Shown: positions 7,876 through 50,237 of the stretch, piece after piece
Layout of the letters: each line of letters opens with the position of its first letter
How positions within the stretch are numbered: the stretch's first letter is position 1
Virus record (IMG/VR): IMGVR_UViG_3300045988_154481
Length of the DNA stretch: 64,000 nt
Strand: one strand, 5' to 3'
Origin: a virus
Program-made: the position numbers and the translations under genes
The notes under the pieces: model-generated
What the model saw: the letters and a program-made list of their open reading frames with translations, nothing else
Databases searched by the model: none
What the model was told of the DNA's origin: nothing

Positions 7876-8406
7876 CGGGAACTCGTCTAAGCGAGTCTAA
7901 ATAGGTCTTTAAGCTTAGAGCGTCTCTGGTCTTTATGACCAGAGGGTAGATGATAGAAATTTAGAATCATAGAAATTTTAAATTTCTTATAAATTTATTA
8001 TTATTATGTTGATATTAGCCCACCTAATTATTAAATGATATGGAAGAACTTTGAATTCGGAAATAGTTATAAAGGTGGGAATGGAGGATATGGGCCAGTT
8101 CCTTTGAGACAGTACCATATTCAAGTATGTTATCTAGTCAATAATATACTTCAGAGAAGGTTTTATACGCTCTGTTCCATTGTGCTATCAAGCCTTAACC
8201 CGACTTAAATTTAGTCTATGGGACTTTGATCGGTCCCATAGGCTCTTATGTGGTAGCGATTGCCGCGTTTTTCTTCAATTTTGTTCATAGTGTTATTACT
8301 CTCTTCGAAATTGCCACATTTTGCAAGATCTGAGGGTTTGGTTGCAATCCAAGAAGCAGAAGAAAGAAAATGGTTTTGTAAACTAAGTATTTCAAGCAAC
8401 AACGTT

Positions 8407-8481
8407 GCTCGGTTCGTCTAGTTGGCCTAGGACGCAGGATTTTCATTCCTGAAATCATGGGTTCGAATCCCATACCGAGTA
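8407..8481 (+). tRNA. tRNA-Glu(UUC)
   Basis: Manual cloverleaf: acceptor gctcggt/accgagt; Glu-type D-arm gtctagttggcctaggac; anticodon stem cagga/tcctg with loop ttTTCat; T-arm atggg-ttcgaat-cccat. No encoded CCA. Confidence 0.7.
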
Positions 8482-8620
8482 CAATTTAAAATTAAATAAA
8501 TGAAGTCTTTCCTCATAACGTATCTCTTCTACAATGAAGAAGGGATTCCGATTCAAAGTTCTCTTCCTGTTCTTGCTAAAGATGAATCTGATGCAAGAAA
8601 TACTATGAAGTTACTCGCAT

Positions 8621-8893
8621 TTGGGTGCATTGAAATCATATCAATTCAAAGAAATGGATAATGAAACTCTCGGAGGTTGCATGGGAGCAATCATTGGAAT
8701 TGTTGTAATTATCGCTATTGCAGCCTTCTTTATGAGCATTTTCATTTATTTGCTCTGGCCTGTAGTGATTCCCGCAGTATTTCCCAAACTTGTAGCAGAA
8801 GGTTACATTGTAGGTAAACTTTCACCTGCGCTCTCTTTAGGAGTTGCTATACTTTGTGCAAGTCTCTTTAAGGGAACTAGTTACAAAAATTAA
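8621..8893 (+). CDS. Small membrane protein.
   Basis: 90 aa with two hydrophobic helices. Confidence 0.4.
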   Translation: MGALKSYQFKEMDNETLGGCMGAIIGIVVIIAIAAFFMSIFIYLLWPVVIPAVFPKLVAEGYIVGKLSPALSLGVAILCASLFKGTSYKN

Positions 8894-8900
8894 AATTATT

Positions 8901-8974
8901 GGTGGTTTCATCTAGTTGCGTTAGGATACCAGAGTCTCATTCTGGAAACAGAGGTTGGAGTCCTCTAATCACTA
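8901..8974 (+). tRNA. tRNA-Glu(CUC)
   Basis: Acceptor ggtggtt/aatcact; D-arm atctagttgcgttaggat; anticodon stem ccaga/tctgg with loop gtCTCat; T-arm agagg-ttggagt-cctct. Confidence 0.65.
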
Positions 8975-9734
8975 CAAATGTTTAACAATATCACAAATTG
9001 TACTTATAACAAAAAATCTGTTCTCGAATCGCACTCCTTTTGAGAAGTGTTATCTCGTAGAAAACGTAAAACAGCTTTCGTTCATTCCTGGGAATCGTAA
9101 TCTCAGAATGGCTCATGTCAAAAGCATTTTCAAAGCCTTCCTTAACGGAGAGTGGATTCCTCCCGTGTTTGTCACTCCCAAAGGAGAGGTACTGGATGGT
9201 CAGCATCGTATCGCAGCATTTCGTATGCTGAAGGAGAAATACCCTGACAGCAAAGCAGCTCTTCCTGTGATGGTTGTTAATGCAGACGAATCAGCTCTGT
9301 TGTCGGCAATCAAGTTTAATTCGGAACATGCCAATTGGGTGATTGAGGACTACATGAGAGCGCATCTGGAGAAAGGTATTCATGGGTATGAGCAGCTTCG
9401 TGACTTTTTGAAGGCTTACCCTGAATTCGAAATCAAAGCTGCAATCCAGCTTATCAAGGGTAAGCACTCTACGAAAGAGTTCAAAGAAGGAGCTCTGAAA
9501 ATCTCTGACGAAGAGTACATGGAAGCTTCCAAAAAGGCTGCTGCTCTGTGTCTTATCTCAGTGAAACTCAACACCAAGGTTGTTTTCCGTCGGGATGTCG
9601 TGGTGGCATTCTACCGCGTATGGGATAAAATCTCCAATATCCAGACGTATGTCAAACGACTGAGTCTCTTCAAAATGCCGCTCACTGAACCCCGTAAGGA
9701 ATGGGAGAGAGCGTACGAGGACTTACTGCGATAA
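8955..9734 (+). CDS. ParB-like nuclease domain protein. The start is uncertain: the ORF-track ATG lies inside the tRNA 3' end.
   Basis: FIPGNRNLRMAHVKSI...GEVLDGQHRIAAF is the ParB/Srx motif. No in-frame ATG exists between 8975 and the conserved region. Confidence 0.55.
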   Translation: MESSNHYKCLTISQIVLITKNLFSNRTPFEKCYLVENVKQLSFIPGNRNLRMAHVKSIFKAFLNGEWIPPVFVTPKGEVLDGQHRIAAFRMLKEKYPDSKAALPVMVVNADESALLSAIKFNSEHANWVIEDYMRAHLEKGIHGYEQLRDFLKAYPEFEIKAAIQLIKGKHSTKEFKEGALKISDEEYMEASKKAAALCLISVKLNTKVVFRRDVVVAFYRVWDKISNIQTYVKRLSLFKMPLTEPRKEWERAYEDLLR

Positions 9735-9759
9735 GGCCTCTACAAGTTAATAAAGTTTT

Positions 9760-10250
9760 TACTTTATGCCTGCTACGGTTTACGCACGTGTGATTAAATA
9801 GAATTTATAAGGGAGCGAACGCTAATCGTATCGCCACGATCTTAAATCTATTATGAACGCAGGTCGGTGATGGTCACTATCTCAGCCTCGCCACAACGAA
9901 ATACGCGCTGTCTGCTGTTGTTTTCTTTTTATACATAACTTAAATCAACTGGATTAAACCTTGAAGACGGGTAATCCAGAGAGGGAATTAAAGGCAATCC
10001 TTATAAATAAGCCTGTATTTTACTTCTGCCGTGGTGACGCAGATGAATAAGTGTTTGGTTGATTTAAGGTGAATCGTTTTCTTTGATTGTAGGTTCTTGT
10101 CGTAAGAAGTAACCTACGGGTTGTAGAGTTCGGGCTAACAAGCCCTTAAACCTACTTAACCAACTCTACAAGCTTTGTAAATTTAGTCACTTTACAAAGT
10201 GTAGCTCTACCTGCTGAGCGAGTCCTCTTACGGAGTTCGAGGAAGGATGC
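9760..10250. ncRNA. Structured noncoding region, a candidate ncRNA. It has nested helices: ttgtagagtt/aactctacaa enclosing gggct-aaca-agccc, ctttgtaaa-N9-tttacaaag, and ggatta...taatcc.
   Basis: About 700 nt without a credible ORF, local GC about 45%, and many perfect stems read directly from the sequence. Confidence 0.35.
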
Positions 10251-10433
10251 AGGATGACTTGCGCCAAGGTCCGAAGAATGTCTACTTCGTCGACACAGCA
10301 AGAGATCTTTACTTGAAGGCTCATACTTTCTTTGTTTGTCCAGGGAGTGTAAAGATTTTAATATTTATGTGGCCGATTAATTTATCTATATCTGTAGCCT
10401 GGCAAGCGTTGACAATGCAGATATTTTTTTAAT

Positions 10434-11456: not shown

Positions 11457-11529
11457 AGAGCTATAGTATTTATAGGTAAGTACACTACTCTAAGGAGTAG
11501 AGATAGAGGTTCAAATCCTCTTAGCTCTC
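11457..11529 (+). tRNA. tRNA-like gene with an irregular anticodon arm (6-nt loop ctaagg, or a 6-bp stem with a 4-nt loop).
   Basis: Good acceptor (agagcta/tagctct), D-stem (gtat/gtac) and T-arm (agagg-ttcaaat-cctct). The anticodon stem ctact/agtag leaves only 6 loop nucleotides. Confidence 0.4.
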
Positions 11530-11666
11530 CAAGACTTTTAAAATTTGTATAATGGAAAAAGTGACACAAAATGTACCTGATACAGGTTGGATAGATCCTG
11601 ATGAATTCGTGAATGACCCTTGTATCGAAGCCATAGAGGATGAAGAACCTCTTAACATAGAATAAT

Positions 11667-17904: not shown

Positions 17905-17975
17905 CGACTTTTATGGTGGAGTCGTCTAGCGATTTAGGACGCCAGTTCTCAGCTGGAAACAGTAGTTTGAATCTG
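17905..17975 (+). tRNA. tRNA-Glu-like, degenerate (4-bp anticodon stem, loop ttCTCag, 71 nt).
   Basis: Acceptor ggtggag/ctccact; Glu-type D-arm gtctagcgatttaggac; T-arm agtag-tttgaat-ctgct with one GU pair. The anticodon stem ccag/ctgg is closed by a G.A mismatch. Confidence 0.4.
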
Positions 17976-18190
17976 CTCTCCACTACACTATTTTAATTAT
18001 TTAATTTAGTTAGGGGTGCTCCTATATAATGCACGGTAGGATATTACCTAAGTATGCCCGAGCTAGTTGCTGAGAATCTCGTTAAACTTTAGAAATGTGG
18101 GTTTCAGAATTTATAATCCCCGCAGCTAAAAAATTCTTCAGATACTATCAACTGGGAGCCTAACGGTATCCTCTTTGATAGTATCTATTT

Positions 18191-18264
18191 GGTCTGTTCG
18201 TCTAGTGGCTTAGGACATTACCCTCTCAAGGTAAAGACAGTTTAAGGTTCGAATCCTCTACAGA
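18191..18264 (+). tRNA. tRNA-Glu(CUC)-like with a weak T-stem.
   Basis: Acceptor ggtctgt/acagact; D-arm gtctagtggcttaggac; anticodon stem ttacc/ggtaa with loop ctCTCaa. The T-stem taagg/cctct has only 3 base pairs. Confidence 0.45.
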
Positions 18265-18282
18265 CTACTAATATAGTAAACT

Positions 18283-20269: not shown

Positions 20270-20342
20270 GGGCCTATAGTTAAAAGGTTTATAACGCACG
20301 ACTCATAATCCTGTATTCCTGGTTCGAGTCCAGGTAGGCCCA
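20270..20342 (+). tRNA. tRNA-Met or Ile2 (CAU)
   Basis: Perfect acceptor gggccta/taggccc; T-arm cctgg-ttcgagt-ccagg; anticodon loop ctCATaa (one mismatch in the anticodon stem). Confidence 0.65.
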
Positions 20343-20361
20343 CTAATTTAAGATATAAGCA

Positions 20362-21484: not shown

Positions 21485-21569
21485 GCCGAGATGGCGAAAT
21501 GGCAGCCGCAGGGGACTTAAAATCCCCTGGTCAGTAATGGCCGTGCGGGTTCGACTCCCGCTCTCGGTA
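21485..21569 (+). tRNA. tRNA-Leu(UAA)
   Basis: Acceptor gccgaga/tctcggt; anticodon stem gggga/tcccc with loop ctTAAaa; long variable arm; T-arm gcggg-ttcgact-cccgc. Confidence 0.7.
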
Positions 21570-21754
21570 CAGCAGTTATTTGATTACGCAACTAGGACAA
21601 TAACAGCTTATGCACGAATGCGTCGTGACGATAGGCAGGTGATAGTGAGGAAGACTACCGTAGGAAATGACGGGGCAGACTGTAAAGTTCTATCCAGATA
21701 CTTACCTCCAGCAGTGGCTAAAAGAGTATCATTTTTATTGAAATATTTTAATAT

Positions 21755-22017: not shown

Positions 22018-22091
22018 AGGAGTATGGCGCAATTGGTTAGCGCACCTCCCTGATACGGAGGGGGTTTCTGGTTCGAATCCAGATACTCCTA
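22018..22091 (+). tRNA. tRNA-Ile(GAU)
   Basis: Acceptor aggagta/tactcct; D-stem gcgc/gcgc; anticodon stem cctcc/ggagg with loop ctGATac; T-arm tctgg-ttcgaat-ccaga. Confidence 0.7.
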
Positions 22092-22105
22092 CTAATTACT
22101 TTTAT

Positions 22106-22546: not shown

Positions 22547-22562
22547 GTCCAATTGGGGTGTG

Positions 22563-22637
22563 GTGTAGTGGCGGCACGTTGGATTTTGATTCCAAAAGCA
22601 TCCGTAGGTTCGATTCCTACCACCCCAACAATAATTA
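22563..22637 (+). tRNA. tRNA-Gln(UUG), with an 8-nt variable region
   Basis: Acceptor tggggtg/cacccca; anticodon stem ttgga/tccaa with loop ttTTGat; T-arm gtagg-ttcgatt-cctac. Confidence 0.6.
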
Positions 22638-22837: not shown

Positions 22838-22911
22838 GACGCCTTGCCTGAATTGGTTAAAGGAGCTGCCTGCAAAGCAGTTTTGTGTGGGTTCGAGCCC
22901 TACAGGCGTCT
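22838..22911 (+). tRNA. tRNA-Cys(GCA)
   Basis: Acceptor gacgcct/aggcgtc; anticodon stem gctgc/gcagt with loop ctGCAaa; T-arm gtggg-ttcgagc-cctac. Confidence 0.65.
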
Positions 22912-22928
22912 CATTATAAATTTACATT

Positions 22929-22967
22929 GCGGGGTAGAGCAGAGGCCAGCTCGCCAGCCTCATAACG
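22929..22967 (+). pseudogene. 5' half of a tRNA-Met-like gene (gcggggtagagcag...ctcataa) lacking a T-arm and 3' acceptor.
   Basis: Initiator-like 5' sequence with a CTCATAA loop, but no complementary 3' half downstream. Confidence 0.4.
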
Positions 22968-23066
22968 GACTTATGTCTAAGATGAAGCTTGTCTATTTAT
23001 TTATACGAACCTTTGTAAAGTTCGAAATTTTTTATATATTTGTAGTATAAATTAATAATTAATACT

Positions 23067-23714
23067 ATGAATAAATACTCAAAACAAGAACTAGAAACGT
23101 ATATTTTAAAGGATAAACTTTCATATGCAGCAATTGGAGGCATTTATGGAGTAACTGGAGCGGCAATAAAGAAAGCCGCTTTAAGGTATGGAATTATATT
23201 ACCTAAAAAGAGAACCATAAATGCGAAAGAGAACTTTAGTCACAAAGGGAAATCTAAAGTAGACTCTTTTTCAGATTCAGAATTTATAGAAATTATTTCT
23301 AGTAACATTGGTTGAAAAAATATTGGATCTGCGTTGGGATATACTAACCGCCCATCAAGTGATGTTGTTTCAAATATAAAAAGTAGATGCTCGAAGTTAG
23401 GTATTGAGCCTATTATTGAACAACCTTCTCCAATACTATTTAAAACTAAGGGAGAATTATTATCTTCTAGAAAAAATTACCAAAGTTATAGAAGTTCTAT
23501 TAGAAAACATGCTGAGTTAACTTATTTTAGATCGACTAAGGTTAAAAAATGTGCAATATGTGGATATGATAAACATATAGAAATTGCACATATTAAATCA
23601 GTAGCAGAGTTTGATGATTCTGTAACAATTGCTGAAATCAATTCCATTGATAATCTCATAGCTTTATGCCCTAACCATCATTGAGAATACGATAATGGAT
23701 TGATTACGATATAA
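23067..23714 (+). CDS. HNH homing endonuclease with an N-terminal HTH (two in-frame TGA).
   Basis: ORFs 23067..23315 and 23334..23684 join through a TGA at 23316. The C-terminus reads LCPNHH-W-EYDNGLITI through a second TGA, then stops at TAA at 23712. Confidence 0.75.
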
Positions 23715-23747
23715 GCTGGAGGTCGGAGGTTCGAATCCTCCTCCCGC
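23715..23747 (+). pseudogene. Isolated tRNA 3' half (T-arm ggagg-ttcgaat-cctcc plus acceptor 3' strand tcccgct).
   Basis: There is no complementary 5' acceptor within 90 nt upstream; that sequence is the HNH coding region. Confidence 0.35.
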
Positions 23748-23753
23748 TACTAA

Positions 23754-23916: not shown

Positions 23917-23990
23917 GGAGCATATGGTGTAATTGGCTAACATATCGCCCTGTCACGGCGAAGTTCGGGGTTCGAATCCCCTATGTTCCG
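23917..23990 (+). tRNA. tRNA-Asp(GUC)
   Basis: Acceptor ggagcat/atgttcc (one GU pair); anticodon stem tcgcc/ggcga with loop ctGTCac; T-arm with loop ttcgaat. Confidence 0.6.
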
Positions 23991-24004
23991 CAAAATTATA
24001 ATTT

Positions 24005-24459: not shown

Positions 24460-24548
24460 GGAGGGTTGTCAGAGTTGGTTTATTGTGTCACTCTTGAAAA
24501 GTGATGTACGTGATGAGCGTACCAGGGGTTCGAATCCCTTACCCTCCG
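24460..24548 (+). tRNA. tRNA-Ser(UGA)
   Basis: Acceptor ggagggt/accctcc; anticodon stem tcact/agtga with loop ctTGAaa; long variable arm; T-loop ttcgaat. Confidence 0.7.
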
Positions 24549-24622
24549 CTTTGCGGTAGTAGTTCTTTGTGAAATTCTCTGCGGTATACAGTAAGTGGAA
24601 GCATAAAAGAATTTCACTTTAA

Positions 24623-24694
24623 GCACCTTTGGTGTAATTGGTAACACGATGGTCTCCAAAACCATAGTTTAGAGTTCAAGTCTTTAAGGGTGTG
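24623..24694 (+). tRNA. tRNA-Trp(CCA)
   Basis: Acceptor gcacctt/agggtgt; D-stem gtgt/acac; anticodon stem atggt/accat with loop ctCCAaa; T-arm tagag-ttcaagt-cttta. Confidence 0.65.
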
Positions 24695-24749
24695 CATAGT
24701 TTTATTATTGTTTATTACAAAGTCTCTTCAGCAAATATTATCAATAGGG

Positions 24750-24795
24750 GATTGTAGATCACGGGTTCAAATCCCGTTTATTAGCATAGCTCTAA
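24750..24795 (+). pseudogene. tRNA-like remnant (T-arm acggg-ttcaaat-cccgt without a proper acceptor or D-arm).
   Basis: Only the T-arm is recognisable. It might fold as a D-armless minimal tRNA. Confidence 0.25.
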
Positions 24796-24847
24796 TAATA
24801 GCTCAGTCAGGTAAAGCAACAATATGATATAAATGAGACTTTTTTAT

Positions 24848-24920
24848 CGGGATGTAGCACAGTTGGTAGCGCGCATGCTTTGGGAGCATGAGGCCGCAGG
24901 TTCGAGCCCTGTCATCCCGA
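24848..24920 (+). tRNA. tRNA-Pro(UGG)
   Basis: Acceptor cgggatg/catcccg; anticodon stem catgc/gcatg with loop ttTGGga; T-arm gcagg-ttcgagc-cctgt. Confidence 0.7.
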
Positions 24921-24936
24921 CTATTTCAAACATAAT

Positions 24937-26284: not shown

Positions 26285-26452
26285 TAAAACAAACAAAATA
26301 TTTGACGATAGACTTAGCTTCAGACTTAGACTAAGTAGCAAAGAGCTGTAATATCCTAGATAAATTACAAGGAGCTACATAAGATTTAGTGTCGCGTCAA
26401 AAGCTTTAGTCTCAAGTTAATAAGGATGTGCTAATTCACTAATAAAAAAATC

Positions 26453-26520
26453 ATAAGACTGGGGGTTCGAGTCCCCCATTCGCCGCTAATTAAATCACTA
26501 TATGGCGAATTGGAGAAATG
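26453..26520 (+). pseudogene. Apparently permuted tRNA pieces: a 3' half (ggggg-ttcgagt-ccccc-attcgcc-g) followed 16 nt later by a matching 5' half (ggcgaat-tg-gag-aaatggttaa-ctc).
   Basis: The 5' acceptor GGCGAAT is the exact complement of the upstream 3' strand ATTCGCC, but lies downstream of it. There is no anticodon arm between them. Confidence 0.35.
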
Positions 26521-26643: not shown

Positions 26644-26724
26644 TGGCCCTGTAAGCAAAGTGGTAAAGCTGCTTATATATTCTAGGTTCATAAGTGTGTG
26701 GAGGTTCGAGTCCTTCCATGGCCA
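26644..26724 (+). tRNA. tRNA-like gene (81 nt), anticodon region irregular.
   Basis: Acceptor ggccctg/catggcc (one mismatch); D-stem agc/gct; T-arm ggagg-ttcgagt-ccttc. A candidate anticodon stem gctta/taagt would enclose a 16-nt loop. Confidence 0.3.
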
Positions 26725-26843
26725 CAAATTCTTTACAGTTTTACAATGAATAGGTAACATACAGCAAAGTAAATGGTTTAAGCAAAATTTCTCTTTTAAT
26801 TTAGCGAAAAGGTTCAAGTCCTTATTGTTACCTAGTTTTAGGA

Positions 26844-26930
26844 GCGGGTATGGCGCAATTGGTAGCGCAGATCACTTTTAATGATAAGGGAGCCGAAAGG
26901 CCGTTCAGGGTTCAAGTCCCTGTGCCCGCA
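26844..26930 (+). tRNA. tRNA with anticodon UUU (Lys-type loop ctTTTaa) but a 19-nt variable arm carrying a GAAA tetraloop. It is an atypical class-II-like tRNA.
   Basis: Acceptor gcgggta/tgcccgc; perfect D-stem gcgc/gcgc; anticodon stem gatca/tgata; variable arm agggagccgaaaggccgtt; T-arm caggg-ttcaagt-ccctg. The arm lengths sum to 87 nt. Confidence 0.5.
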
Positions 26931-26949
26931 CAAGTAAAATATATGTTAA

Positions 26950-27567
26950 ATGAGTAGAAAATACACTAAAGAAGAAATAATAAAATGCGTAGAAGGTTCT
27001 AAAACACCTTCTGAATGTTTATTGAAGCTAGGAGTTGCTCCTATTGGAGGAAATTATCCAATGTTGTATAATTTACTAAAATGATATAATATTTCAGTAC
27101 CTTTTAGAATTGGAGCAACTAGGGTTAAAAGTAATTTAAAAAAGAAGTTGATTAATGATAGAGGACATAAATGTGAAATGTGTTTAAATACAGAATGATT
27201 AGAAGATCCTATTCCTTTAGAGCTACATCACATTGATGGAAATCCAGATAACAATGTGGATTCTAATTTAATGCTTCTTTGTCCTAATTGTCATGCTAAA
27301 ACAGATAACTATAAAAGCAAAAATCGGCAAATCAATAAGAAAACCTATGCATGTTCAGAATGTGGTAAAGTTCTAAATTCCGCTTCCATGACTGGATTAT
27401 GTATAACTTGTTTACGTAAATCTTTAAAGAATCCTGTACGACCTTCTAAAGAAGAATTAGAGGAACTTCTAAAGACTAATTCTAAAACAGCACTAGGTAA
27501 GAAGTTTGGAGTTAGTGGCAGAACTATTCTTAAATGATATCGGCAGGATCACGGCATGGATGATTAA
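26950..27567 (+). CDS. HNH homing endonuclease (four in-frame TGA).
   Basis: Manual translation gives CEMCLNTE-W-LEDPIPLELHHIDGNPDNN...LMLLCPNCHAKTDN and the end ...ILK-W-YRQDHGMDD*. The ORF track shows only the 27256..27537 fragment. Confidence 0.8.
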
Positions 27568-27747: not shown

Positions 27748-27820
27748 CCCACTTTGGGAGTATGGCGCAATGGCTAACGCAATCGGCTGTTAACCGATAG
27801 ATTCCAAGTTCGAATCTTGG
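27748..27820 (+). tRNA. tRNA-Asn(GUU)
   Basis: Acceptor gggagta/tgctccc; anticodon stem atcgg/ccgat with loop ctGTTaa; T-arm ccaag-ttcgaat-cttgg. Confidence 0.7.
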
Positions 27821-27844
27821 TGCTCCCGCTTAAAAAGAATAAAA

Positions 27845-28952: not shown

Positions 28953-29024
28953 GAGGTATTGGTGTTAGTGATAGCATATGTGACTTCCAATCACAAGGGG
29001 AGAGTTTGAATCTCTTATACCTCT
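28953..29024 (+). tRNA. tRNA-Gly(UCC)
   Basis: Acceptor gaggtat/atacctc; anticodon stem tgtga/tcaca with loop ctTCCaa; T-arm gagag-tttgaat-ctctt. Confidence 0.65.
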
Positions 29025-30321: not shown

Positions 30322-30393
30322 GGGCCATGTAGTGTAAAGGCGAGCACATTTCCTTTGCAAGGAAATAGAGGGGTTCGAATCCCACATGTGTCC
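30322..30393 (+). tRNA. tRNA-Ala(UGC)-like with weak acceptor and T-stems.
   Basis: Perfect anticodon arm tttcc-ttTGCaa-ggaaa. The acceptor pairs 5 of 7 and the T-stem 3 of 5. Confidence 0.4.
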
Positions 30394-30540: not shown

Positions 30541-30613
30541 GGGACTGCGGTGTGCGTGGTGCGCTCGTTGGACTGAAAATCCAAAGGTGAACGTTCGACT
30601 CGTTCCAGTCCCA
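30541..30613 (+). tRNA. tRNA-Phe(GAA)
   Basis: Acceptor gggactg/cagtccc; anticodon stem ttgga/tccaa with loop ctGAAaa; T-arm gaacg-ttcgact-cgttc. Confidence 0.7.
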
Positions 30614-30700
30614 CTAATAGGCTACATACAGCAATTAGCTTCTTAATGTATTTTTTTGGATGATAGTGTAGCCTTTCTTTGAAATTAATTATTACAAAAT

Positions 30701-32854: not shown

Positions 32855-32940
32855 CCCGACGCGGCTACGATGGTGGAGTGGCACAGCACTGTAAATGCTG
32901 TACATCAGAAACTCATGAGGTTCGAATCCTCACGGCGGGA
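32855..32940 (+). tRNA. tRNA-Tyr(GUA)
   Basis: Acceptor cccgacg/cggcggg (one A.G mismatch); anticodon stem cagca/tgctg with loop ctGTAaa; long variable arm; T-arm tgagg-ttcgaat-cctca. Confidence 0.55.
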
Positions 32941-32955
32941 CTAATTTATATTGAC

Positions 32956-36313: not shown

Positions 36314-36802
36314 ATGGATAAAATTTGTTCAAAATGTGGGGAAACTAAAGACATTTCACTCTTTGCTAAGGATCGGCACTCTTCTGATGGATATACTTAT
36401 TGATGTAAAGATTGTAGAAATACAGCAAATAAGAAATATCGGAAAGAAAATCCTGATAAAGTTCAGGAACATAATGAAAAGTGAAAAGATAAAAGAAAAG
36501 AATATTATAGTCTTCCTAAAAATCAAGAAAAGCTTAGAAGACATCATCTCAAGAAAATGTATAATATTACTTTGGAAGACTATGATGCTTTGTTTCAACT
36601 TCAAGGTGGTGTTTGTGCTATATGTGGAAAACCTGAAACAAGCTCAAAGGCTAGTAACTTAGCAGTAGATCATGATCACACAAATGGTAGTATTAGAGGC
36701 CTATTATGTAATAAATGTAATAGAGGCTTAGGATATTTTGAAGATGATGCAACTATTTTGTCTAAAGCTATAGAATATTTAAAAAATAAAGATAATGTTT
36801 AG
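36314..36802 (+). CDS. Recombination endonuclease VII (two in-frame TGA).
   Basis: Manual translation gives CSKCGETKD...GYTY-W-CKDCRN...HNEK-W-KDKR...CAICGKPE...DHDHTNGSIRGLLCNKCNRGLGYF. The ORF track shows only 36557..36802. Confidence 0.8.
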
Positions 36803-42205: not shown

Positions 42206-42279
42206 GGGCCTTTAGCTCAATTGAATAGAGCATCTGACTACGAATTAGAAGGTTACAGGTTTGAGTCCTGTAGGGCCCA
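42206..42279 (+). tRNA. tRNA-Arg(ACG)
   Basis: Acceptor gggcctt/agggccc; D-stem gctc/gagc; anticodon stem tctga/ttaga with loop ctACGaa; T-arm acagg-tttgagt-cctgt. Confidence 0.7.
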
Positions 42280-42475
42280 CATATGAAAACTGTTTTATAT
42301 AGAATACAATCAATTGAAGCCCCAGAAAATGAAGGGTTTCGGTATGGCTCATTAAGAACACTATCTAAGACAAAGGTAGATGAAGAAATGTGCTTAAGGA
42401 ATGAGTTTGGAAGTCATTATCTAATTAATGTTCCAGATTATTGAATTTGTGAGATTTTAAAAGAAATAGAAGAAG

Positions 42476-43725: not shown

Positions 43726-43810
43726 GCGGAGGTGACCAGAATGGATAATGGACCAGTCTTCTAAACTGGCGGCTGAATAGCCATTGTGGGTTCGAGTCCC
43801 ACCCTCCGTA
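43726..43810 (+). tRNA. Class-II-length tRNA (85 nt) with anticodon UCU (loop ctTCTaa) and a long variable arm. The amino-acid identity is ambiguous.
   Basis: Acceptor gcggagg/cctccgt; anticodon stem ccagt/actgg; variable arm cggct-gaat-agccatt; T-arm gtggg-ttcgagt-cccac. Confidence 0.5.
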
Positions 43811-43826
43811 CTAATAACATTATAAT

Positions 43827-45137: not shown

Positions 45138-45142
45138 TAAAA

Positions 45143-46306: not shown

Positions 46307-46391
46307 GGAGAGTAATCCTTGATGGTGATAGGGCTTGCCTGCTAAGCAATGTGTGCCTTTCTGGCATGTGGTTCGATTCCACTGCTCTCCG
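46307..46391 (+). tRNA. tRNA-Ser(GCU)
   Basis: Acceptor ggagagt/gctctcc; anticodon loop ctGCTaa; long variable arm; T-arm tgtgg-ttcgatt-ccact. Confidence 0.6.
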
Positions 46392-46415
46392 CAAATAAAT
46401 TAATATTAAAAGGAT

Positions 46416-46618: not shown

Positions 46619-46701
46619 GCCTCTGTGGTGGAATTGGTAGACACGTGTGCCTTAGGAGCACATGGACCTAGTCCATGCAGGTTCGAGTCCTGTCAGGGGT
46701 A
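46619..46701 (+). tRNA. tRNA-Leu(UAG)
   Basis: Acceptor gcctctg/caggggt; D-stem gtg/cac; anticodon stem tgtgc/gcaca with loop ctTAGga; variable hairpin tggacctagtcca; T-arm gcagg-ttcgagt-cctgt. Confidence 0.65.
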
Positions 46702-46728
46702 CTTAATAATATTTAAAACTAATATAAA

Positions 46729-47309: not shown

Positions 47310-47399
47310 GCGCCTGACCCGAGGCGGGGGGGAGGTCTTCAAAACCTCTATGCTGTTGGTCCATCTTCAGCCCTGTGGGATCGTTACCTACCAGGCGTG
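47310..47399 (+). tRNA. Opal suppressor tRNA (anticodon UCA), 90 nt, with a 26-nt variable arm, a non-canonical T-loop (atcgtta) and G73.
   Basis: Acceptor gcgcctg (47310-16) pairs with caggcgt (47392-98). Anticodon stem gaggt/acctc (47332-36 and 47344-48) with loop cTTCAaa; the anticodon TCA is at 47339-41. T-arm gtggg-atcgtta-cctac. Variable-arm helix gctg...cagc. Confidence 0.6.
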
Positions 47400-47415
47400 C
47401 AAATAAGAAGTAAAT

Positions 47416-48000
47416 ATGACTATTAAGGAACAATGTATACATTTACGGGAAGAAGGAAAAACTTATAACGAAATTTGTACTATTCTACACTGTTCTAAAA
47501 GTACAGTTGCATATCATTTGAATACGACTACTAAGATAGCAGCTACAAAATGACAAAGCGAAAACAAATGTAAGGATTGAAAGTACAAATTTATGCATAG
47601 TTGTTCTAACTTTCTAAATCGAAGAGATAGATCTAAACATATCAGAACAATGTGTTCAGATTGAAATAAAAAGTTTAGAACTCACGTATCAGAGTTCAAT
47701 AATAGATATAAAAACAAAGGAAATTTGGCTAATAAATGTTATTACAAGGATGTGTTAACATATCTTAATGGAACTAATGTTAAATGTTATTTAACAGGTA
47801 CACCTATTGATTTGACAAAAGATGATTATTGTTTTGATCATATAGTTCCTGTATCAAAAGGAGGAACTAATGAATTATCAAATCTAGGAGTAACTATTCC
47901 CTCAGCTAATTATTCTAAACATGATTTAACTATAGAGGAATATTTGTCTTTATGTAAACAGGTTTTAGAACACCATGGGTATACTGTAAGTAAAACTTAA
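47416..48000 (+). CDS. HNH homing endonuclease with an N-terminal HTH (three in-frame TGA).
   Basis: Manual translation gives MTIKEQCIHLREEGKTYNEICTILHCSKSTVAYHL...ATK-W-QSENKCKD-W-KYKF...CSD-W-NKKF..., joining ORF 47725..48000 (DHIVPVSKGGTNELSNL). Confidence 0.75.
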
Positions 48001-48508: not shown

Positions 48509-48509
48509 T

Positions 48510-48611
48510 ATGTGGTGGTTGATTGGATTACTATTAGCTATTGCTATCATACTTAGTCCTATGTTATGGGCTATTTATAAACATATAACGTATGAGAAGT
48601 TGAATAACTAA
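48510..48611 (+). CDS. Tiny transmembrane peptide (holin-like?).
   Basis: MWWLIGLLLAIAIILSPMLWAIYKH... Confidence 0.2.
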   Translation: MWWLIGLLLAIAIILSPMLWAIYKHITYEKLNN

Positions 48612-49203
48612 AATTTTAAGTGGAGTTGCAATTATTTTAGGAATAACTGTTTACTTCATGAATGTAAGGATAAATGATTTAAATAAATCATTAGATATAT
48701 CCGTTAATAATGAAAAAGCATACTCGGCTGAAAACTCAGCCTTGAAAGAGAGTAATATAGTTTTTAGATTTGAGTTAGCTCAAATGACCCACATGAATGA
48801 TTCAATTCTTGTGAAAATGCGAGAAGTAGCCCAAGAACTCAAAATAAAGGATAAGAAATTAGAATCTTTACAATATCAGTTAGAACATATTTCTAAGTCA
48901 GATACTATTTTTATTAGAGATACTATATTTAAAGATCCTGGTTTTAAACTTGATACGTGTATTCAAGATAAATGGGCTAAAACTTGTCTACATCTTGAAT
49001 ATCCAAATGAAGTAGGAGTGTCAAGCGAGTTTAACAATGAAAAGTATATTATTACTTCTTGGAAAAAAGAACCAATTAAGCAAAGGAAGTGGTTCCTTCC
49101 AAGATGGTTTACGAAAAAACAAAAAATTGTAACTGTTGACGTAGTAGATAAGAATCCTTATGTAACTACAGAAAGACAGAGATTTGTACAAATTGTAGAT
49201 TAA
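48592..49203 (+). CDS. Type-II membrane coiled-coil protein (i-spanin-like), with one TGA near the start.
   Basis: ATG at 48592, then MRS-W-ITKILSGVAIILGITVYF, in frame with ORF 48658..49203. Confidence 0.35.
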
Positions 49204-49470
49204 ATGATTACAACAATACCTACAAAATATGATATAGGGCAGAAAGTATATTTAAAGAAAACTGCTCTTGACTTTTCTCGAGGATATTTCATTGATGTTG
49301 AAGTTCCAGATCCAACTCCTTACATAATTACATCTATTAGAATTCATGTATATCCTGATTATACAAGTATTTATTACCGTATCGATGGAAAACAGGAATC
49401 TATTAGGGAGGATAAAGTATTTAGTTCTTTAGAAGAGGTAGAAGCCCATTGTAAGCATGATTCAGAATAG
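49204..49470 (+). CDS. Hypothetical protein.
   Basis: 88-aa ORF. Confidence 0.4.
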   Translation: MITTIPTKYDIGQKVYLKKTALDFSRGYFIDVEVPDPTPYIITSIRIHVYPDYTSIYYRIDGKQESIREDKVFSSLEEVEAHCKHDSE

Positions 49471-49951
49471 CTTTTTGGAAAAAGGTAAAGAGAAAGAATT
49501 AGAATTTGCCTTAGCTCTTTGCAAAGCTAAAAGTCTTTCGTCCTCTATAATAGAAGAAGCTAGCAAGGAAGATGACATTTATCGTCATATTGATATCTGG
49601 GTGGGAGCAAATAGTTTCGATGTTAAAGCTGCAAAGAAAACCAACCGCTCTGATTTACTTCCTAACTATGATATTCATTGGATAGAACTCAGAAACGTTC
49701 ATGGAGACAAAGGCTGGCTATTCGGGCAAGCTGATTATATAGCCTTTGAGTTGGAAACTACTTGGTGTATCTGTCCAAGAATTTCTTTAATACGGTCTCT
49801 AAAGGGTAAAATTGATTTTTCCAATTTTACTACTAATAGAGATGATATGTTTAGAGTATATAGACGTAAAGATAGATTAGATGCTATTGTTAAAGTCGAT
49901 AGTGATTTTTTGACCAAGGTTACGTCTAGTTTTTTAATTCCTAAAGAATAG
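49457..49951 (+). CDS. Hypothetical protein.
   Basis: 164-aa ORF. Confidence 0.45.
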   Translation: MIQNSFLEKGKEKELEFALALCKAKSLSSSIIEEASKEDDIYRHIDIWVGANSFDVKAAKKTNRSDLLPNYDIHWIELRNVHGDKGWLFGQADYIAFELETTWCICPRISLIRSLKGKIDFSNFTTNRDDMFRVYRRKDRLDAIVKVDSDFLTKVTSSFLIPKE

Positions 49952-49954
49952 ACT

Positions 49955-50137
49955 ATGATTTTCTCTTTAGTGTATTACTTGATTTGTGCAGGTATTATTT
50001 TTGGTTCTGATGACGGAAAACCTTGGAAGTTTTCAGATTATATACTTTTATTGTTTGCAGGTATTTATGCTCCTTTAAGTGTAGGAGTTTATATTGGTAA
50101 ACATTTAAGGGAACACAAGGTATATAAGGAGGATTAA
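49955..50137 (+). CDS. Small membrane protein.
   Basis: 60 aa with 2 transmembrane segments. Confidence 0.3.
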   Translation: MIFSLVYYLICAGIIFGSDDGKPWKFSDYILLLFAGIYAPLSVGVYIGKHLREHKVYKED

Positions 50138-50147
50138 CCTCCTATAT

Positions 50148-50223
50148 GGTGTATATAGCTCAGTTGGTTTAGAGCGCCAGATTGTGGCTCTGGAGGTCAC
50201 CGATTCAAATTCGGTTATACACC
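50148..50223 (+). tRNA. tRNA-His(GUG) with an encoded G-1
   Basis: g-1 then gtgtata/tatacac, discriminator C; D-stem gctc/gagc; anticodon stem ccaga/tctgg with loop ttGTGgc; T-arm accga-ttcaaat-tcggt. Confidence 0.75.
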
Positions 50224-50237
50224 CTAAAATATGAATT

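What the first reader, a model, noticed from the sequence alone, without database searches (positions are those of the whole stretch)
8400..50230. Very large tRNA island with several non-canonical tRNA genes
I could fold by hand about 22 canonical tRNAs. These are Glu x2, Met/Ile-CAU, Leu-UAA, Ile, Gln, Cys, Asp, Ser-UGA, Trp, Pro, Asn, Gly, Phe, Tyr, Arg-ACG, Ser-GCU, Leu-UAG and His, plus the suppressor. There are also odd ones. Three to four Glu-family paralogues carry anticodon CUC, and two of them are degenerate (17905, 18191). One tRNA at 11457 has a 6-nt anticodon loop. One at 26844 has a Lys-type anticodon UUU but a 19-nt variable arm with a GAAA tetraloop. The class-II-length tRNAs at 30020 and 43726 have anticodons that do not belong to class II (UGU/GUA ambiguous, and UCU). 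Several of these may be non-standard decoders, regulatory tRNA-like RNAs or pseudogenes.
Basis: seen in the sequence. Interest (0 to 1): 0.6.

Follow-up and report, generated by a model that had tools for sequence, protein, structure and literature searches.

The report
Phage tRNA island with extra-arm tRNAs
This is the tRNA-rich region of a large phage that reads the stop codon TGA as tryptophan, and several of its ordinary tRNAs (Lys, Thr, Arg and the TGA decoder) carry an extra hairpin arm, a variant that turns out to be widespread in phages and that I could not find described.

Summary
ARAGORN and Rfam together tRNA genes at 8407-50224, all on the + strand. I found two more: a tRNA-Met split by an HNH gene, and a Met-like gene. 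There are also two candidate Y-RNA-like elements.

The window belongs to a family of roughly 90-180 kb phage contigs. They use TGA as Trp, so the odd 91-nt tRNA-UCA (47310) is the opal decoder, not tRNA-Sec.

The class-II-length Lys-UUU, Thr-UGU and Arg-UCU genes are true 7/5 cloverleaves with a paired variable arm. In 25 related contigs the long and normal-length alleles replace each other at the same slot (both present in 1 of 85 cases). Both lengths share the same discriminator base and 1:72 pair. I therefore read them as ordinary-identity tRNAs with an added arm, not as Ser/Leu mis-chargers or allo-tRNAs.

Six homing-endonuclease genes lie among the tRNAs, and allele-replacement scars are visible.

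Extra-arm tRNAs with class-I anticodons occur in hundreds of unrelated viral contigs, with Thr, Asn and Lys over-represented. No searched paper describes them.

The arm's role is inferred only: a shield against tRNA-cutting defence nucleases. The 6-nt-loop tRNA, the long-stem CUA tRNA and the three Glu-CUC copies remain unexplained.

The parts
8407..8482 (+). tRNA-Glu(UUC), canonical, G1.U72
   Evidence: ARAGORN; Rfam 61.8 bits
8901..8974 (+). tRNA-Glu(CUC) paralogue with T loop UUGGAGU
   Evidence: Rfam only, 46 bits; sequence and fold
11457..11530 (+). tRNA-like gene with a 6-nt anticodon loop CUAAGG (would-be anticodon AAG) and C73
   Evidence: Rfam 47.7 bits; 9 relatives carry CUGAGG; fold z = -2.75
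17915..17986 (+). tRNA-Glu(CUC) paralogue
   Evidence: ARAGORN only; no Rfam hit
18191..18268 (+). tRNA-Glu(CUC) paralogue, 78 nt, with a 4-nt insertion in the T stem (degenerate)
   Evidence: 74-nt alleles in relatives
20270..20343 (+). tRNA-Met/Ile2(CAU)
21485..21570 (+). tRNA-Leu(UAA), class II
22018..22092 (+). tRNA-Ile(GAU)
22554..22629 (+). tRNA-Gln(UUG)
22838..22912 (+). tRNA-Cys(GCA)
22928..23750 (+). Initiator-like tRNA-Met(CAU) split in its anticodon loop: 5' half 22928-22965, 3' half 23713-23750. Either an intron or a disrupted gene.
   Evidence: the intact 74-nt allele is at L017:301-374; no Rfam intron hit
23067..23714 (+). HNH homing endonuclease gene inside the Met tRNA, with two in-frame TGA codons
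   Evidence: Pfam HNH_2 2e-11; TGA<->TGG polymorphism at 23313 against L034
23755..23840 (+). Met-like tRNA with GGG/CCC anticodon stem and an 8-nt (or 6-nt) loop UCGCAUAA
   Evidence: Rfam 29.8 bits on a narrow scan
23917..23991 (+). tRNA-Asp(GUC)
24460..24549 (+). tRNA-Ser(UGA), class II
24623..24695 (+). tRNA-Trp(CCA), G1.U72, G73
24719..24842 (+). Candidate Y-RNA-like element: permuted tRNA-like core (T arm, closed acceptor hairpin, D arm) at 24753-24822
   Evidence: Rfam YrlA 25.5 bits, below gathering score 69, E = 0.019 on 3 kb; fold z = -2.6
24848..24921 (+). tRNA-Pro(UGG), normal length here; 92-nt variable-arm allele in 10 relatives
26451..26488 (+). 3' remnant of a Met-type tRNA
26645..26725 (+). 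tRNA(CUA), 81 nt. The anticodon helix has 9 layers with a 2x2 internal loop (or 5 bp plus a 13-nt loop).
   Evidence: Rfam 39.4 bits; identical in 10 contigs
26844..26931 (+). tRNA-Lys(UUU) with an added variable arm (88 nt, 7/5, 4-bp D stem, A73)
   Evidence: Rfam 59.8 bits; compensatory anticodon-stem change across alleles; alleles
26950..27567 (+). HNH homing endonuclease gene 19 nt after Lys, with three in-frame TGA codons
27609..27745 (+). Second candidate Y-RNA-like element, identified by eye only
   Evidence: z = -0.5, not significant
27756..27829 (+). tRNA-Asn(GUU), normal length here; 85-87-nt variable-arm alleles in relatives
27845..28276 (+). PD-(D/E)XK endonuclease gene 16 nt after Asn
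   Evidence: Pfam PDDEXK_5 2.3e-26
28953..29024 (+). tRNA-Gly(UCC)
   Evidence: Rfam only, 49.7 bits
29060..29794 (+). HNH homing endonuclease gene 36 nt after Gly, with three in-frame TGA codons
30020..30102 (+). tRNA-Thr(UGU) with a variable arm (83 nt, 7/5, 3-bp D stem, U73)
   Evidence: Rfam 48.8 bits; alleles
30323..30393 (+). Degenerate 'Ala(UGC)': irregular acceptor stem, no G3.U70
   Evidence: Rfam 34 bits, partial match
30541..30614 (+). tRNA-Phe(GAA)
32855..32941 (+). tRNA-Tyr(GUA), class II length, C1-G72
   Evidence: ARAGORN only; compensatory anticodon-stem changes in contig 154597
33484..35175 (+). Ro60/TROVE-like protein (DUF2828 + DUF7788)
36314..36802 (+). Endonuclease VII-type gene with two in-frame TGA codons
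   Evidence: Pfam 1e-25
42206..42280 (+). tRNA-Arg(ACG)
43726..43811 (+). tRNA-Arg(UCU) with a variable arm (86 nt, 7/5, G1.U72, A73)
   Evidence: Rfam 52 bits; compensatory changes against the 88-nt allele
46307..46392 (+). tRNA-Ser(GCU), class II
   Evidence: Rfam tRNA-Sec model 41.9 bits, below gathering score 47
46619..46702 (+). tRNA-Leu(UAG), class II
47310..47400 (+). tRNA(UCA) opal decoder: 91 nt, 7/5, reduced D arm, about 20-nt variable arm, T loop AUCGUUA, G1.U72, G73
   Evidence: no Rfam hit; identical in 11 contigs; slot conserved
47416..48000 (+). HNH homing endonuclease gene 16 nt after tRNA-UCA, with three in-frame TGA codons
50149..50224 (+). tRNA-His(GUG)

Best explanation
The region is the tRNA and auxiliary-gene module of a large phage (related contigs of roughly 90-180 kb) whose genes use TGA as tryptophan.

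It carries about 30 tRNA genes, one anticodon for each of 19 amino acids (Val is missing), plus a UCA tRNA that decodes TGA.

The tRNA genes are hot spots for homing endonucleases, both free-standing and inserted in anticodon loops. Co-infecting relatives keep swapping whole tRNA alleles, which explains the dispersed layout and the unusual allele diversity.

The class-II-length Lys-UUU, Thr-UGU and Arg-UCU genes, and the UCA tRNA, are translation-competent tRNAs of the identity their anticodon implies. A short stable hairpin has been added in the variable region.

- Shown: the structure, the conservation, the interchangeability with normal-length alleles, the shared acceptor-end features, and the wide occurrence in unrelated phages.
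- Inferred: these tRNAs are charged by the cognate synthetases.
- Inferred more weakly: the extra arm protects the tRNA from host tRNA-cutting defence nucleases that grip the anticodon stem and D loop, of the PARIS AriB type.
For: Phage context and relatives:
- GC is 35% and almost all ORFs lie on the + strand.
- Relatives come from IMG/VR.

TGA is a sense codon:
- Only 6 of 73 standard ORFs end in TGA.
- Code-4 translation restores a full helicase (9 TGA), RNase H, a Toprim primase and the HNH genes.
- TGA<->TGG polymorphisms occur at 23313, 58023, 58218, 58497 and 56730.
- TGA makes up 25% of Trp codons.

The UCA slot is kept in relatives:
- In 11 contigs it holds the identical 91-nt allele, with an HNH gene 16 nt downstream.
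- Elsewhere it holds alleles interrupted between U34 and C35 by a ~600-nt insert that carries an ORF resembling the PD-(D/E)XK endonuclease (by eye).
- The UCA tRNA shares G1.U72, C2-G71 and G73 with the phage Trp-CCA tRNA.

The variable-arm tRNAs are real tRNAs:
- They form 7/5 cloverleaves.
- They score 48.8-59.8 bits against Rfam tRNA.
- Alleles show compensatory changes in the acceptor, anticodon and T stems. Read by eye, so do three of the four stem pairs of the Arg variable arm, 86-nt against 88-nt allele.

Long and short alleles look interchangeable:
- They exclude each other at the same slot: both are present in 1 of 85 contig-by-anticodon cases, and they assort independently.
- N73 and the 1:72 pair are identical within each anticodon family and differ from the Ser set of G1-C72, G2-C71, A3-U70, G73.
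- AAA, AGA and ACA are major codons.

Homing-endonuclease activity:
- Six endonuclease genes lie in the island, four of them 16-36 nt after a tRNA.
- L019 reads [Arg-75][HNH][3' half of the long Arg allele].
- A tRNA-Met is split by an HNH gene.
- Mosaic breakpoints between relatives fall at tRNA genes.

Breadth beyond this family:
- Cellulophaga phage phi4:1 has a variable-arm Asn as the only Asn tRNA in its array; RefSeq annotates it as pseudo.
- At least 120 IMG/VR contigs hold a variable-arm Asn-GUU, in 84 distinct sequences. G73 is present in 81 of 84. The variable region forms a hairpin in 71%, against 25% of shuffles.
- In an anticodon-agnostic sample, 66 of 740 tRNAs with class-I anticodons are 81 nt or longer.

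Support for the shield idea:
- AriB cleaves Lys-UUU, Thr-UGU and Asn-GUU at 40|41, with a D-loop contact, and phage T5 tRNA variants rescue infection (PMC12409363).
- Those three species are about 3-fold enriched among variable-arm class-I tRNAs (p = 1.6e-4 for all; 0.003 for the subset not picked by the motif).
- The island also carries an NAD-salvage cluster; from general knowledge, phages use such genes against NAD-depleting defences.
Against: - No expression, aminoacylation or cleavage data exist. Cognate charging rests on genetics-style inference alone.
- Arg-UCU alleles share G1.U72 and A73 with the phage Leu tRNAs, and Asn has G73 like Ser, so dual identity is not excluded.
- Enrichment of ANN decoders as a whole is not significant once the motif-selected cases are removed (p = 0.25).
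- The Thr/Asn/Lys test was framed after seeing this family, and related contigs are not independent.
- Many variable-arm species (Trp, Cys, His, Glu, Gln) are not known AriB targets.
- Endonuclease genes are linked to both long alleles (Lys-88, UCA-91) and short alleles (Asn-74, Arg-75), so a DNA-level explanation fits as well.
- The host and its defence systems are unknown.
Confidence: 0.55

Rival explanations
1. The variable arm is a product of homing-endonuclease warfare at the DNA level. The variable region is the one place where a tRNA gene tolerates an insertion. An insertion there (or swapping in a differently shaped allele) would destroy the endonuclease recognition site, so arm-bearing and arm-less alleles would be mutually immune targets. 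On this view the arm has no RNA-level role.
For: - Six endonuclease genes lie in the island.
- Each endonuclease is linked to one specific allele: HNH to Lys-88 and to UCA-91, PD-(D/E)XK to Asn-74, HNH to Arg-75.
- For Arg, Asn and Lys, the endonuclease-linked allele and the endonuclease-free allele differ in length class.
- In L019 a 3' scar of the long Arg allele sits behind an Arg-75+HNH cassette.
Against: - The variable-arm stems keep their pairing through compensatory changes, and many are capped by GAAA-type loops. That points to selection on RNA structure.
- Variable-arm tRNAs are found in hundreds of unrelated contigs. Whether endonuclease genes lie next to them there was not examined.
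- HNH 29060 sits beside both the Thr-83 and the Thr-73 allele.
Confidence: 0.2
2. The class-II-length tRNAs keep a Ser, Leu or Tyr identity, because those synthetases ignore the anticodon. They would then insert the wrong amino acid at AAA, ACA and AGA, like allo-tRNAs or nematode nev-tRNAs. That would amount to deliberate mistranslation or a host-shutoff weapon.
For: - Each of the following anticodons is one substitution from a class-II anticodon: UGU/UGA, UCU/GCU, GUU/GUA, UGG/UGA, UCA/UGA (my reading of the sequences).
- The Thr and Arg alleles have the 3-bp D stem typical of class II.
- Arg shares G1.U72 and A73 with the phage Leu tRNAs.
- Allo-tRNAs insert Ser at Leu codons in E. coli (PMC5389517).
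Against: - Each genome carries a single tRNA for these anticodons, long or short but not both.
- The codons involved are the phage's own major codons.
- N73 and 1:72 match the normal-length alleles and not the phage Ser tRNAs.
- Variable-arm Asn tRNAs in unrelated phages carry U1-A72 and G73, as E. coli tRNA-Asn does (the E. coli comparison is from my own knowledge).
- The architecture is 7/5, not 8/4 or 9/3.
Confidence: 0.1
3. The remaining irregular genes are decaying copies or non-decoding tRNA mimics (decoys, Y-RNA-like partners of the Ro60-like protein) rather than adaptors. These are the 6-nt-loop 11457, the long-stem CUA 26645, Glu-CUC 18191 and 8901, the Ala-like 30323 and the Met-like 23755.
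For: - 18191 has a 4-nt insertion in its T stem.
- 30323 lacks G3.U70 and has an irregular acceptor stem.
- The CUA tRNA has an over-long anticodon helix, TAG is a normal stop (15 of 73 ORFs), and no in-frame TAG was seen.
- A Ro60-like gene and a weak YrlA match lie in the island.
- A 6-nt 'anticodon loop' is described for the D. radiodurans Y RNA (PMC4201824).
Against: - 11457 and 26645 are conserved almost to the base in about 10 contigs.
- Both keep N73-C74 3' ends like the working tRNAs.
- The only loop change in 11457 is A/G at the would-be wobble position, and RAG would serve the frequent CUY Leu codons.
Confidence: 0.4

Closest known systems
allo-tRNAs (Mukai et al. 2017, PMC5389517)
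   Same: Bacterial or phage tRNAs with a long variable arm and anticodons that are not Leu, Ser or Tyr. ARAGORN flags them as Sec-like.
   Different: Allo-tRNAs have 8/4 or 9/3 acceptor/T stems, a long D stem with a tetraloop, and mostly G73/U73 Ser (or G3.U70 Ala) identity. The tRNAs here are 7/5, and their acceptor ends match the normal-length tRNA of the same anticodon.
nev-tRNAs of nematodes (PMC3333845, abstract only)
   Same: Class II architecture carrying a class-I anticodon.
   Different: The abstract describes them as nematode-specific, with an anticodon that is neither Leu nor Ser, and as decoding an alternative code for leucine. Here the genetic evidence points to cognate identity.
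Suppressor tRNAs of TGA-to-Trp recoded phages (Borges et al., bioRxiv 10.1101/2021.08.26.457843)
   Same: A low-GC phage with in-frame TGA, a phage-encoded UCA tRNA, and TGA-rich homing endonuclease genes.
   Different: That work detected a TGA suppressor in only 35% of code-4 genomes and guessed that the rest have non-canonical structures. This one is such a case: 91 nt, long variable arm, reduced D arm, missed by Rfam, and interrupted by a ~600-nt insert in two relatives examined.
Phage T5 tRNA variants that evade PARIS AriB (PMC12409363) and anticodon-loop escape variants (PMC10264068)
   Same: Phage copies of Lys-UUU, Thr-UGU and Asn-GUU that differ from host-type tRNAs. The island also sits among other candidate counter-defence genes.
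   Different: The known escape is by point substitutions near the cut site or in the D loop. Here the difference is a whole extra arm, and no cleavage test exists.
Free-standing homing endonucleases in phage tRNA clusters (T4 SegB; recalled from my own knowledge, not checked here)
   Same: Endonuclease genes sit between tRNA genes, vary in presence among relatives, and neighbouring alleles are co-converted.
   Different: Several endonuclease families are involved, the genes carry in-frame TGA, and there are scars and an anticodon-loop insertion. Activity was not tested.
YrlA-type bacterial/phage Y RNAs with Ro60 (PMC4201824)
   Same: A permuted tRNA-like module (T arm, closed acceptor hairpin, D arm), with a Ro60-like gene about 6-9 kb away.
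   Different: The Rfam score is 25.5 bits against a gathering score of 69. The Ro-binding stem motif was not recognised. The second copy was identified by eye only.

Membership tests
Canonical bacterial class II tRNA (Leu/Ser/Tyr) | Variable region of 10 nt or more forming a stem-loop | tested here: met
   Lys has 19 nt, Thr about 13-14 nt and Arg 16 nt, each with a 3-4-bp stem. Read by eye from the sequences, three of the four Arg stem pairs change on both sides between the 86- and 88-nt alleles; RNAalifold on the MAFFT alignment recovered only part of this arm.
Canonical bacterial class II tRNA (Leu/Ser/Tyr) | Anticodon for Leu, Ser or Tyr | tested here: not met
   The anticodons are UUU, UGU, UCU and UCA.
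allo-tRNA | 8/4 or 9/3 acceptor/T-stem configuration | tested here: not met
   All are 7/5 in the ARAGORN cloverleaves.
allo-tRNA | Ser (G73/U73 plus variable arm) or Ala (G3.U70) identity elements | tested here: not met
   Lys has A73 and Arg has A73. Thr has U73, but so do the normal-length Thr alleles. None has the G1-C72/G2-C71/A3-U70/G73 set of the phage Ser tRNAs.
tRNA-Sec (for 47310) | 13-bp acceptor/T domain (8/5) and a 6-bp D stem with a 4-nt loop | tested here: not met
   It is 7/5 with a 3-4-bp D stem. The Rfam RF01852 model gives no hit at 47310.
tRNA-Sec (for 47310) | UGA read as Sec at SECIS-marked sites | tested here: not met
   TGA alternates with TGG at the same codons and occurs in many genes, including 9 times in one helicase. 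SelA, SelB and SECIS elements were not searched for.
Opal suppressor tRNA of code-4 phages | UCA anticodon together with in-frame TGA at Trp positions in phage genes | tested here: met
Opal suppressor tRNA of code-4 phages | Charged with Trp | not testable with these tools
   The only support is that it shares G1.U72, C2-G71 and G73 with the phage Trp-CCA tRNA.
tRNA-Pyl (ARAGORN's label for 26645) | 3-nt variable loop, 6-bp anticodon stem, G73 | tested here: not met
   It has A73, a variable loop of about 5 nt, and a 9-layer anticodon helix or a 13-nt loop. PylRS was not searched for.
Cognate Lys/Thr/Arg tRNA | Anticodon, discriminator base and 1:72 pair the same as in the accepted tRNA of that amino acid | tested here: met
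   N73 and 1:72 are identical between long and normal-length alleles in every family. A20 is present in the Arg D loop (read from the sequence).
Cognate Lys/Thr/Arg tRNA | Aminoacylated by LysRS, ThrRS or ArgRS | not testable with these tools
   Inferred from the mutual exclusivity of alleles.
Intronless homing / free-standing endonuclease cassette | Endonuclease gene next to the target gene, presence varying among relatives, with co-converted flanks or scars | tested here: met
Group I intron in a tRNA anticodon loop | Catalytic core recognisable; 5' exon ends in U and the intron ends in G | tested here: inconclusive
   The UCA alleles in L044 and L038 meet the U and G boundary rule and carry an ORF resembling the PD-(D/E)XK endonuclease by eye. 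Rfam finds no intron. In the window's Met insert the last base before the 3' half is U, and there is no Rfam hit.
YrlA Y RNA | Reaches the Rfam gathering score, with a Ro60 gene nearby | tested here: inconclusive
   25.5 bits against a gathering score of 69. The neighbouring protein matches DUF7788 above its cut-off and DUF2828 below it.

The most novel reading that the evidence does not exclude
Adding a stable hairpin in the variable region of otherwise ordinary class-I tRNAs is a widespread, so far undescribed phage strategy. It is most frequent for Thr-UGU, Asn-GUU and Lys-UUU, and it also occurs in Trp (CCA) tRNAs and in this family's UCA opal decoder. It would yield a natural class of 7/5 'class-II-shaped' tRNAs that keep their cognate identity. 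They would resist host tRNA-targeting immune nucleases such as PARIS AriB, and/or homing endonucleases. They are also systematically mis-annotated as pseudogenes or Sec/Pyl tRNAs.
Probability: 0.35. Interest if true: 0.8.

Novelty: new variant of a known kind. Interest (0 to 1): 0.65.

Why it matters
- It would overturn the textbook rule that in bacteria only Leu, Ser, Tyr (and Sec) tRNAs carry a long variable arm. It would also show that Lys, Thr, Arg, Asn, Pro and Trp synthetases, EF-Tu and the ribosome tolerate the arm in nature.
- It offers a concrete, testable way for phage tRNAs to escape tRNA-cleaving defence systems.
- It helps explain why suppressor tRNAs go undetected in most TGA-recoded phages.
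- It identifies tRNA genes that annotation pipelines currently label pseudo, OTHER, SeC or Pyl. The RefSeq record of Cellulophaga phage phi4:1 is one example.
- These natural scaffolds could also be useful for engineering orthogonal tRNAs.

Tried and rejected
- Near-identity DNA search of 12 kb against 50,697 phage records found nothing.
- Host inference with the ABC ATPase against one genome per species gave only 24-33% identity hits in unrelated taxa. The host is still unknown.
- TAG recoding: no gene is restored by reading through TAG, and 15 of 73 ORFs end in TAG. The CUA tRNA is therefore not explained by recoding.
- tRNA-Sec and tRNA-Pyl labels were rejected on structure and on TGA/TGG polymorphism.
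- Allo-tRNA membership was rejected because the tRNAs are 7/5.
- Group I intron searches with Rfam on the UCA inserts in L044 and L038 and on the Met insert in the window gave no hit.
- The 595-kb phage hit to the long Pro allele turned out to be a normal-length 77-nt tRNA-Pro.
- Nearest-paralogue analysis, meant to decide whether the long tRNAs derive from Ser, Leu or Tyr genes, was uninformative: about 70% identity to all class II tRNAs.
- Five literature searches found no description of variable-arm class-I tRNAs in phages. The library is incomplete, so this is not proof of novelty.
- Thermodynamic z-scores are unremarkable for the CUA tRNA, the UCA tRNA and the second Y-like element.

Full report

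Yes. ARAGORN tRNA genes between 8407 and 50224, all on the + strand. Rfam's tRNA model finds 24 at gathering score. Two of these ARAGORN missed: 8901-8974 (anticodon CUC) and 28953-29024 (UCC). Four ARAGORN calls get no Rfam tRNA hit: 17915, 32855, 46307 and 47310.

- 11457 has a 5-bp anticodon stem and a 6-nt loop, CUAAGG.
- 26844 is Lys-UUU, 88 nt, with a variable region holding GCC-GAAA-GGC.
- 30020 is 83 nt with UGU in a 7-nt loop closed by U.U.
- 43726 is Arg-UCU, 86 nt.
- 26645 (CUA) has an over-long anticodon helix.

All 28 genes end N73-C74 followed by something other than CA, so CCA is not encoded and the odd genes share the ends of the normal ones.

Scanning for orphan T arms found more:
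- A tRNA-Met(CAU) whose two halves (22928-22965 and 23713-23750) are separated by an HNH gene.
- A Met-like gene at 23755-23840.
- A 3' remnant at 26451-26488.
- Two permuted tRNA-like elements.

**2. What genome is this?**

GC is 35% and nearly all ORFs are on the + strand. There is no close DNA match among cultured phages.

A Ro60/TROVE-like protein (33484-35175) is 44% identical to one from a Leptolyngbya phage. IMG/VR holds about 25 contigs of this family whose proteins are 60-100% identical to the window's. Most come from a single metagenome.

The tRNAs are interleaved with auxiliary genes:
- NAD salvage genes: NADAR, nicotinamidase, NAPRTase and NAD synthase.
- A PurA-like gene and an IMPDH/GMP-reductase-like gene.
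- An ABC importer and MgtC.
- A cyclic-phosphate-processing receiver domain.

The host could not be assigned.

**3. TGA is a sense codon**

Only 6 of 73 standard ORFs end in TGA, against 52 in TAA and 15 in TAG. Reading TGA as Trp restores several genes:
- a full SF2 helicase (57996-59249, nine TGA codons, ResIII plus Helicase_C);
- RNase H (53680-54123);
- a Toprim primase (62973 onward);
- several endonucleases.

Relatives have TGG where the window has TGA at 23313, 56730, 58023, 58218 and 58497. TGA makes up 25% of Trp codons. Reading through TAG restores no gene.

This places the phage among the TGA-to-Trp recoded phages described by Borges et al. (bioRxiv 10.1101/2021.08.26.457843).

The UCA tRNA at 47310 is therefore the opal decoder:
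- It is 7/5, not the 8/5 of tRNA-Sec.
- It shares G1.U72, C2-G71 and G73 with the phage Trp-CCA tRNA.
- Its slot is conserved. Eleven contigs carry the identical 91-nt gene, with an HNH gene 16 nt downstream.
- In L044 the same gene, and in L038 a different allele, is interrupted between U34 and C35. The insert is about 600 nt and carries an ORF that resembles the PD-(D/E)XK endonuclease by eye (not run through Pfam). The 5' exon ends in U and the insert ends in G.
- Rfam does not recognise an intron there, so 'group I intron' remains a lead.

Borges et al. found TGA suppressors in only 35% of code-4 phages and suspected non-canonical structures. This tRNA is a concrete example.

**4. The class-II-length tRNAs**

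In the relatives, the same slots hold either a normal-length or a long allele of the same anticodon:

| Anticodon | Normal-length allele | Long allele |
|---|---|---|
| Lys-UUU | 74-75 nt | 87-88 nt |
| Thr-UGU | 73-75 nt | 83 nt |
| Arg-UCU | 73-75 nt | 86 or 88 nt |
| Asn-GUU | 73-74 nt | 85-87 nt |
| Pro-UGG | 72-77 nt | 92 nt |

Across 85 contig-by-anticodon cases, only one genome has both forms. The five loci assort independently: one contig has all five long, and the window has three.

The long alleles look selected as RNAs:
- Alleles differ by compensatory changes in the acceptor, anticodon and T stems.
- The Arg variable arm changes from GGCU/AGCC to GAGC/GCUC.
- The Asn variable arm changes an A-U pair to G-C.

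Within each anticodon family the discriminator and the 1:72 pair are the same in long and short alleles:
- Lys has A73.
- Thr has G1-C72 and U73.
- Arg has G1.U72 and A73.
- Asn has G73.
- Pro has C1-G72 and A73.

None of them carries the G1-C72, G2-C71, A3-U70, G73 set of the phage's Ser tRNAs. AAA, AGA and ACA are major codons of the phage.

Together these results argue that the long genes do the same job as the short ones. They are 7/5, so they are not allo-tRNAs, which are 8/4 or 9/3 (PMC5389517).

**5. The feature is not confined to this family**

A BLAST of the long alleles hit Cellulophaga phage phi4:1. Its 89-nt variable-arm Asn-GUU is the only Asn tRNA in its array, and RefSeq annotates it as 'tRNA-OTHER/pseudo'.

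- 119 are ARAGORN Asn-GUU genes of 81-92 nt, in 84 distinct sequences.
- G73 is present in 81 of 84.
- The 1:72 pair is U-A in 59 and G-C in 21.
- The variable region forms a hairpin of 3 bp or more in 71%, against 25% of shuffles.

The same loci hold variable-arm Met, Thr, Ile, His, Trp, Cys, Gln, Lys and other tRNAs. These keep features expected of their own amino acid (my reading), for example the G-1/C73 look of the His genes.

An anticodon-agnostic pattern (CGAAAG, a 4-10-nt gap, then GGTTCGAATCC) sampled 119 further contigs. About a quarter of the motif-bearing tRNAs have class-I anticodons. Overall, 66 of 740 tRNAs with class-I anticodons in those loci are 81 nt or longer. The commonest are Thr-UGU (10), Asn (8), Trp (7), Met (6), Cys (5) and Lys-UUU (5).

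I found no paper describing this. The library is incomplete.

**6. Homing endonucleases and allele turnover**

Six endonuclease genes sit in the island:
- HNH at 23067, 26950, 29060 and 47416;
- PD-(D/E)XK at 27845;
- Endonuclease VII at 36314.

Four of them start 16-36 nt after a tRNA. At least five of them contain in-frame TGA.

Each is tied to one allele in relatives: Lys-88, UCA-91, Asn-74 and Arg-75.

In L019 the order is Arg-75, then HNH, then the 3' half of the long Arg allele. That is a replacement scar. In the window an HNH gene sits inside a tRNA-Met anticodon loop. Breakpoints of similarity between relatives fall at tRNA genes.

This accounts for the spread-out layout and the allele diversity.

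**7. Why the extra arm?**

This step is inference. The PARIS nuclease AriB cuts Lys-UUU, Thr-UGU and Asn-GUU at 40|41 in the anticodon stem. It cuts Thr-CGU weakly, and sequencing also gave probable cleavage products for His-GUG and Pro-UGG. It appears to contact the D loop, and T5 tRNA variants rescue infection (PMC12409363).

The variable arm emerges next to that surface (my own knowledge of tRNA geometry). The species with long alleles here (Lys, Thr, Asn, Pro, Arg-UCU) overlap the AriB set.

In the anticodon-agnostic sample, Thr-UGU, Asn and Lys-UUU are about 3-fold enriched among variable-arm tRNAs (p = 1.6e-4; 0.003 without the motif-selected cases).

Caveats:
- The test was framed after seeing the family.
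- The contigs are not independent.
- ANN decoders as a whole are not significantly enriched in the unselected subset (p = 0.25).
- Many variable-arm species are not known AriB targets.

The alternative is that arm-bearing and arm-less alleles are mutually immune to each other's homing endonucleases. That fits the linkage pattern equally well, but it does not explain why the pairing in the arm is conserved.

**8. Still unexplained**

- 11457 is a perfect cloverleaf apart from its 6-nt loop. It is conserved in 10 contigs, and the only loop change is A/G at the would-be wobble position.
- The CUA tRNA is identical in 10 contigs and missing from about half of the contigs that cover its slot, while TAG is a normal stop.
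- There are three Glu-CUC copies.
- The Ala-like gene lacks G3.U70.
- Tyr-GUA has C1-G72 (compare PMC5370408).
- G1.U72 is frequent among this phage's tRNAs.
- The Y-RNA-like elements are candidates only: 25.5 bits against a gathering score of 69 (PMC4201824).

**9. Verdict**

The finding is real. The island is a known kind of thing, a phage tRNA cluster in a recoded phage. It contains a structural tRNA variant that appears common in phages and that I could not find described.

Noticed in passing
window 7881-7951 and 4469-4519: A pistol self-cleaving ribozyme (72.5 bits, gathering score 34.5) lies about 450 nt upstream of the first tRNA. A twister-P1-like match (47.1 bits, below the gathering score of 67.2) lies further upstream.
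   Followed up: no
window 39941-41035: A 364-aa adenylosuccinate-synthetase homologue (Pfam 5.7e-30) sits beside NAD and purine salvage genes. It could be a PurZ-type enzyme for 2-aminoadenine DNA. This was not tested.
   Followed up: no
window 32878-39049: An NAD salvage/synthesis cluster (NADAR, isochorismatase-type nicotinamidase, NAPRTase, NAD synthase) lies inside the tRNA island. From general knowledge, such genes can counter NAD-depleting host defences.
   Followed up: partly
window 33484-35175, 24719-24842, 27609-27745: A Ro60/TROVE-like protein (DUF7788 plus weak DUF2828) together with two permuted tRNA-like elements. One of these gives a weak Rfam YrlA match.
   Followed up: partly
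window 53680-64000: Replication genes (RNase H, helicase with 9 TGA codons, a RecA/DnaB-like gene, Toprim primase) are readable only with TGA = Trp. Standard-code ORF calling fragments them.
   Followed up: yes
L044:5257-5945 and L038:5893-6590: In relatives the UCA tRNA is interrupted between U34 and C35 by an insert of about 600 nt carrying an ORF that resembles the PD-(D/E)XK endonuclease by eye. The boundaries look like group I (U at the exon end, G at the insert end), but Rfam finds no intron. In L038 the variable arm resembles a Trp (CCA) anticodon stem-loop.
   Followed up: partly
L003:8958-9030, L006:3659, L014:6839: Relatives carry a 73-nt tRNA with an 8-nt anticodon loop (GUGCGUUG or GUGUGUUG) between the Ala-like and Phe genes. 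It is absent from the window.
   Followed up: no
L060:11970-12058 (NC_021788 90400-90481): Cellulophaga phage phi4:1 has a variable-arm tRNA-Asn(GUU) that RefSeq annotates as 'tRNA-OTHER / tRNA-Pseudo'. It is the only Asn tRNA in that array.
   Followed up: yes
window, 5' flanks of 17915, 24848, 26645, 28953, 32855: A recurrent CTTTTAT motif lies immediately upstream of several tRNA genes. It may be a processing or promoter signal.
   Followed up: no
window 45092-45574: A cREC_REC domain protein (cyclic-phosphate-processing receiver, 8.5e-21). From my own knowledge, this domain family is linked to RNA-repair systems. It lies within the tRNA island.
   Followed up: no
window 14512-17715: A phage-encoded ABC importer whose substrate-binding protein (NMT1/THI5-like) is fused to an OmpA-type peptidoglycan-binding domain. 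An ion-channel gene lies next to it (13740-14525).
   Followed up: no
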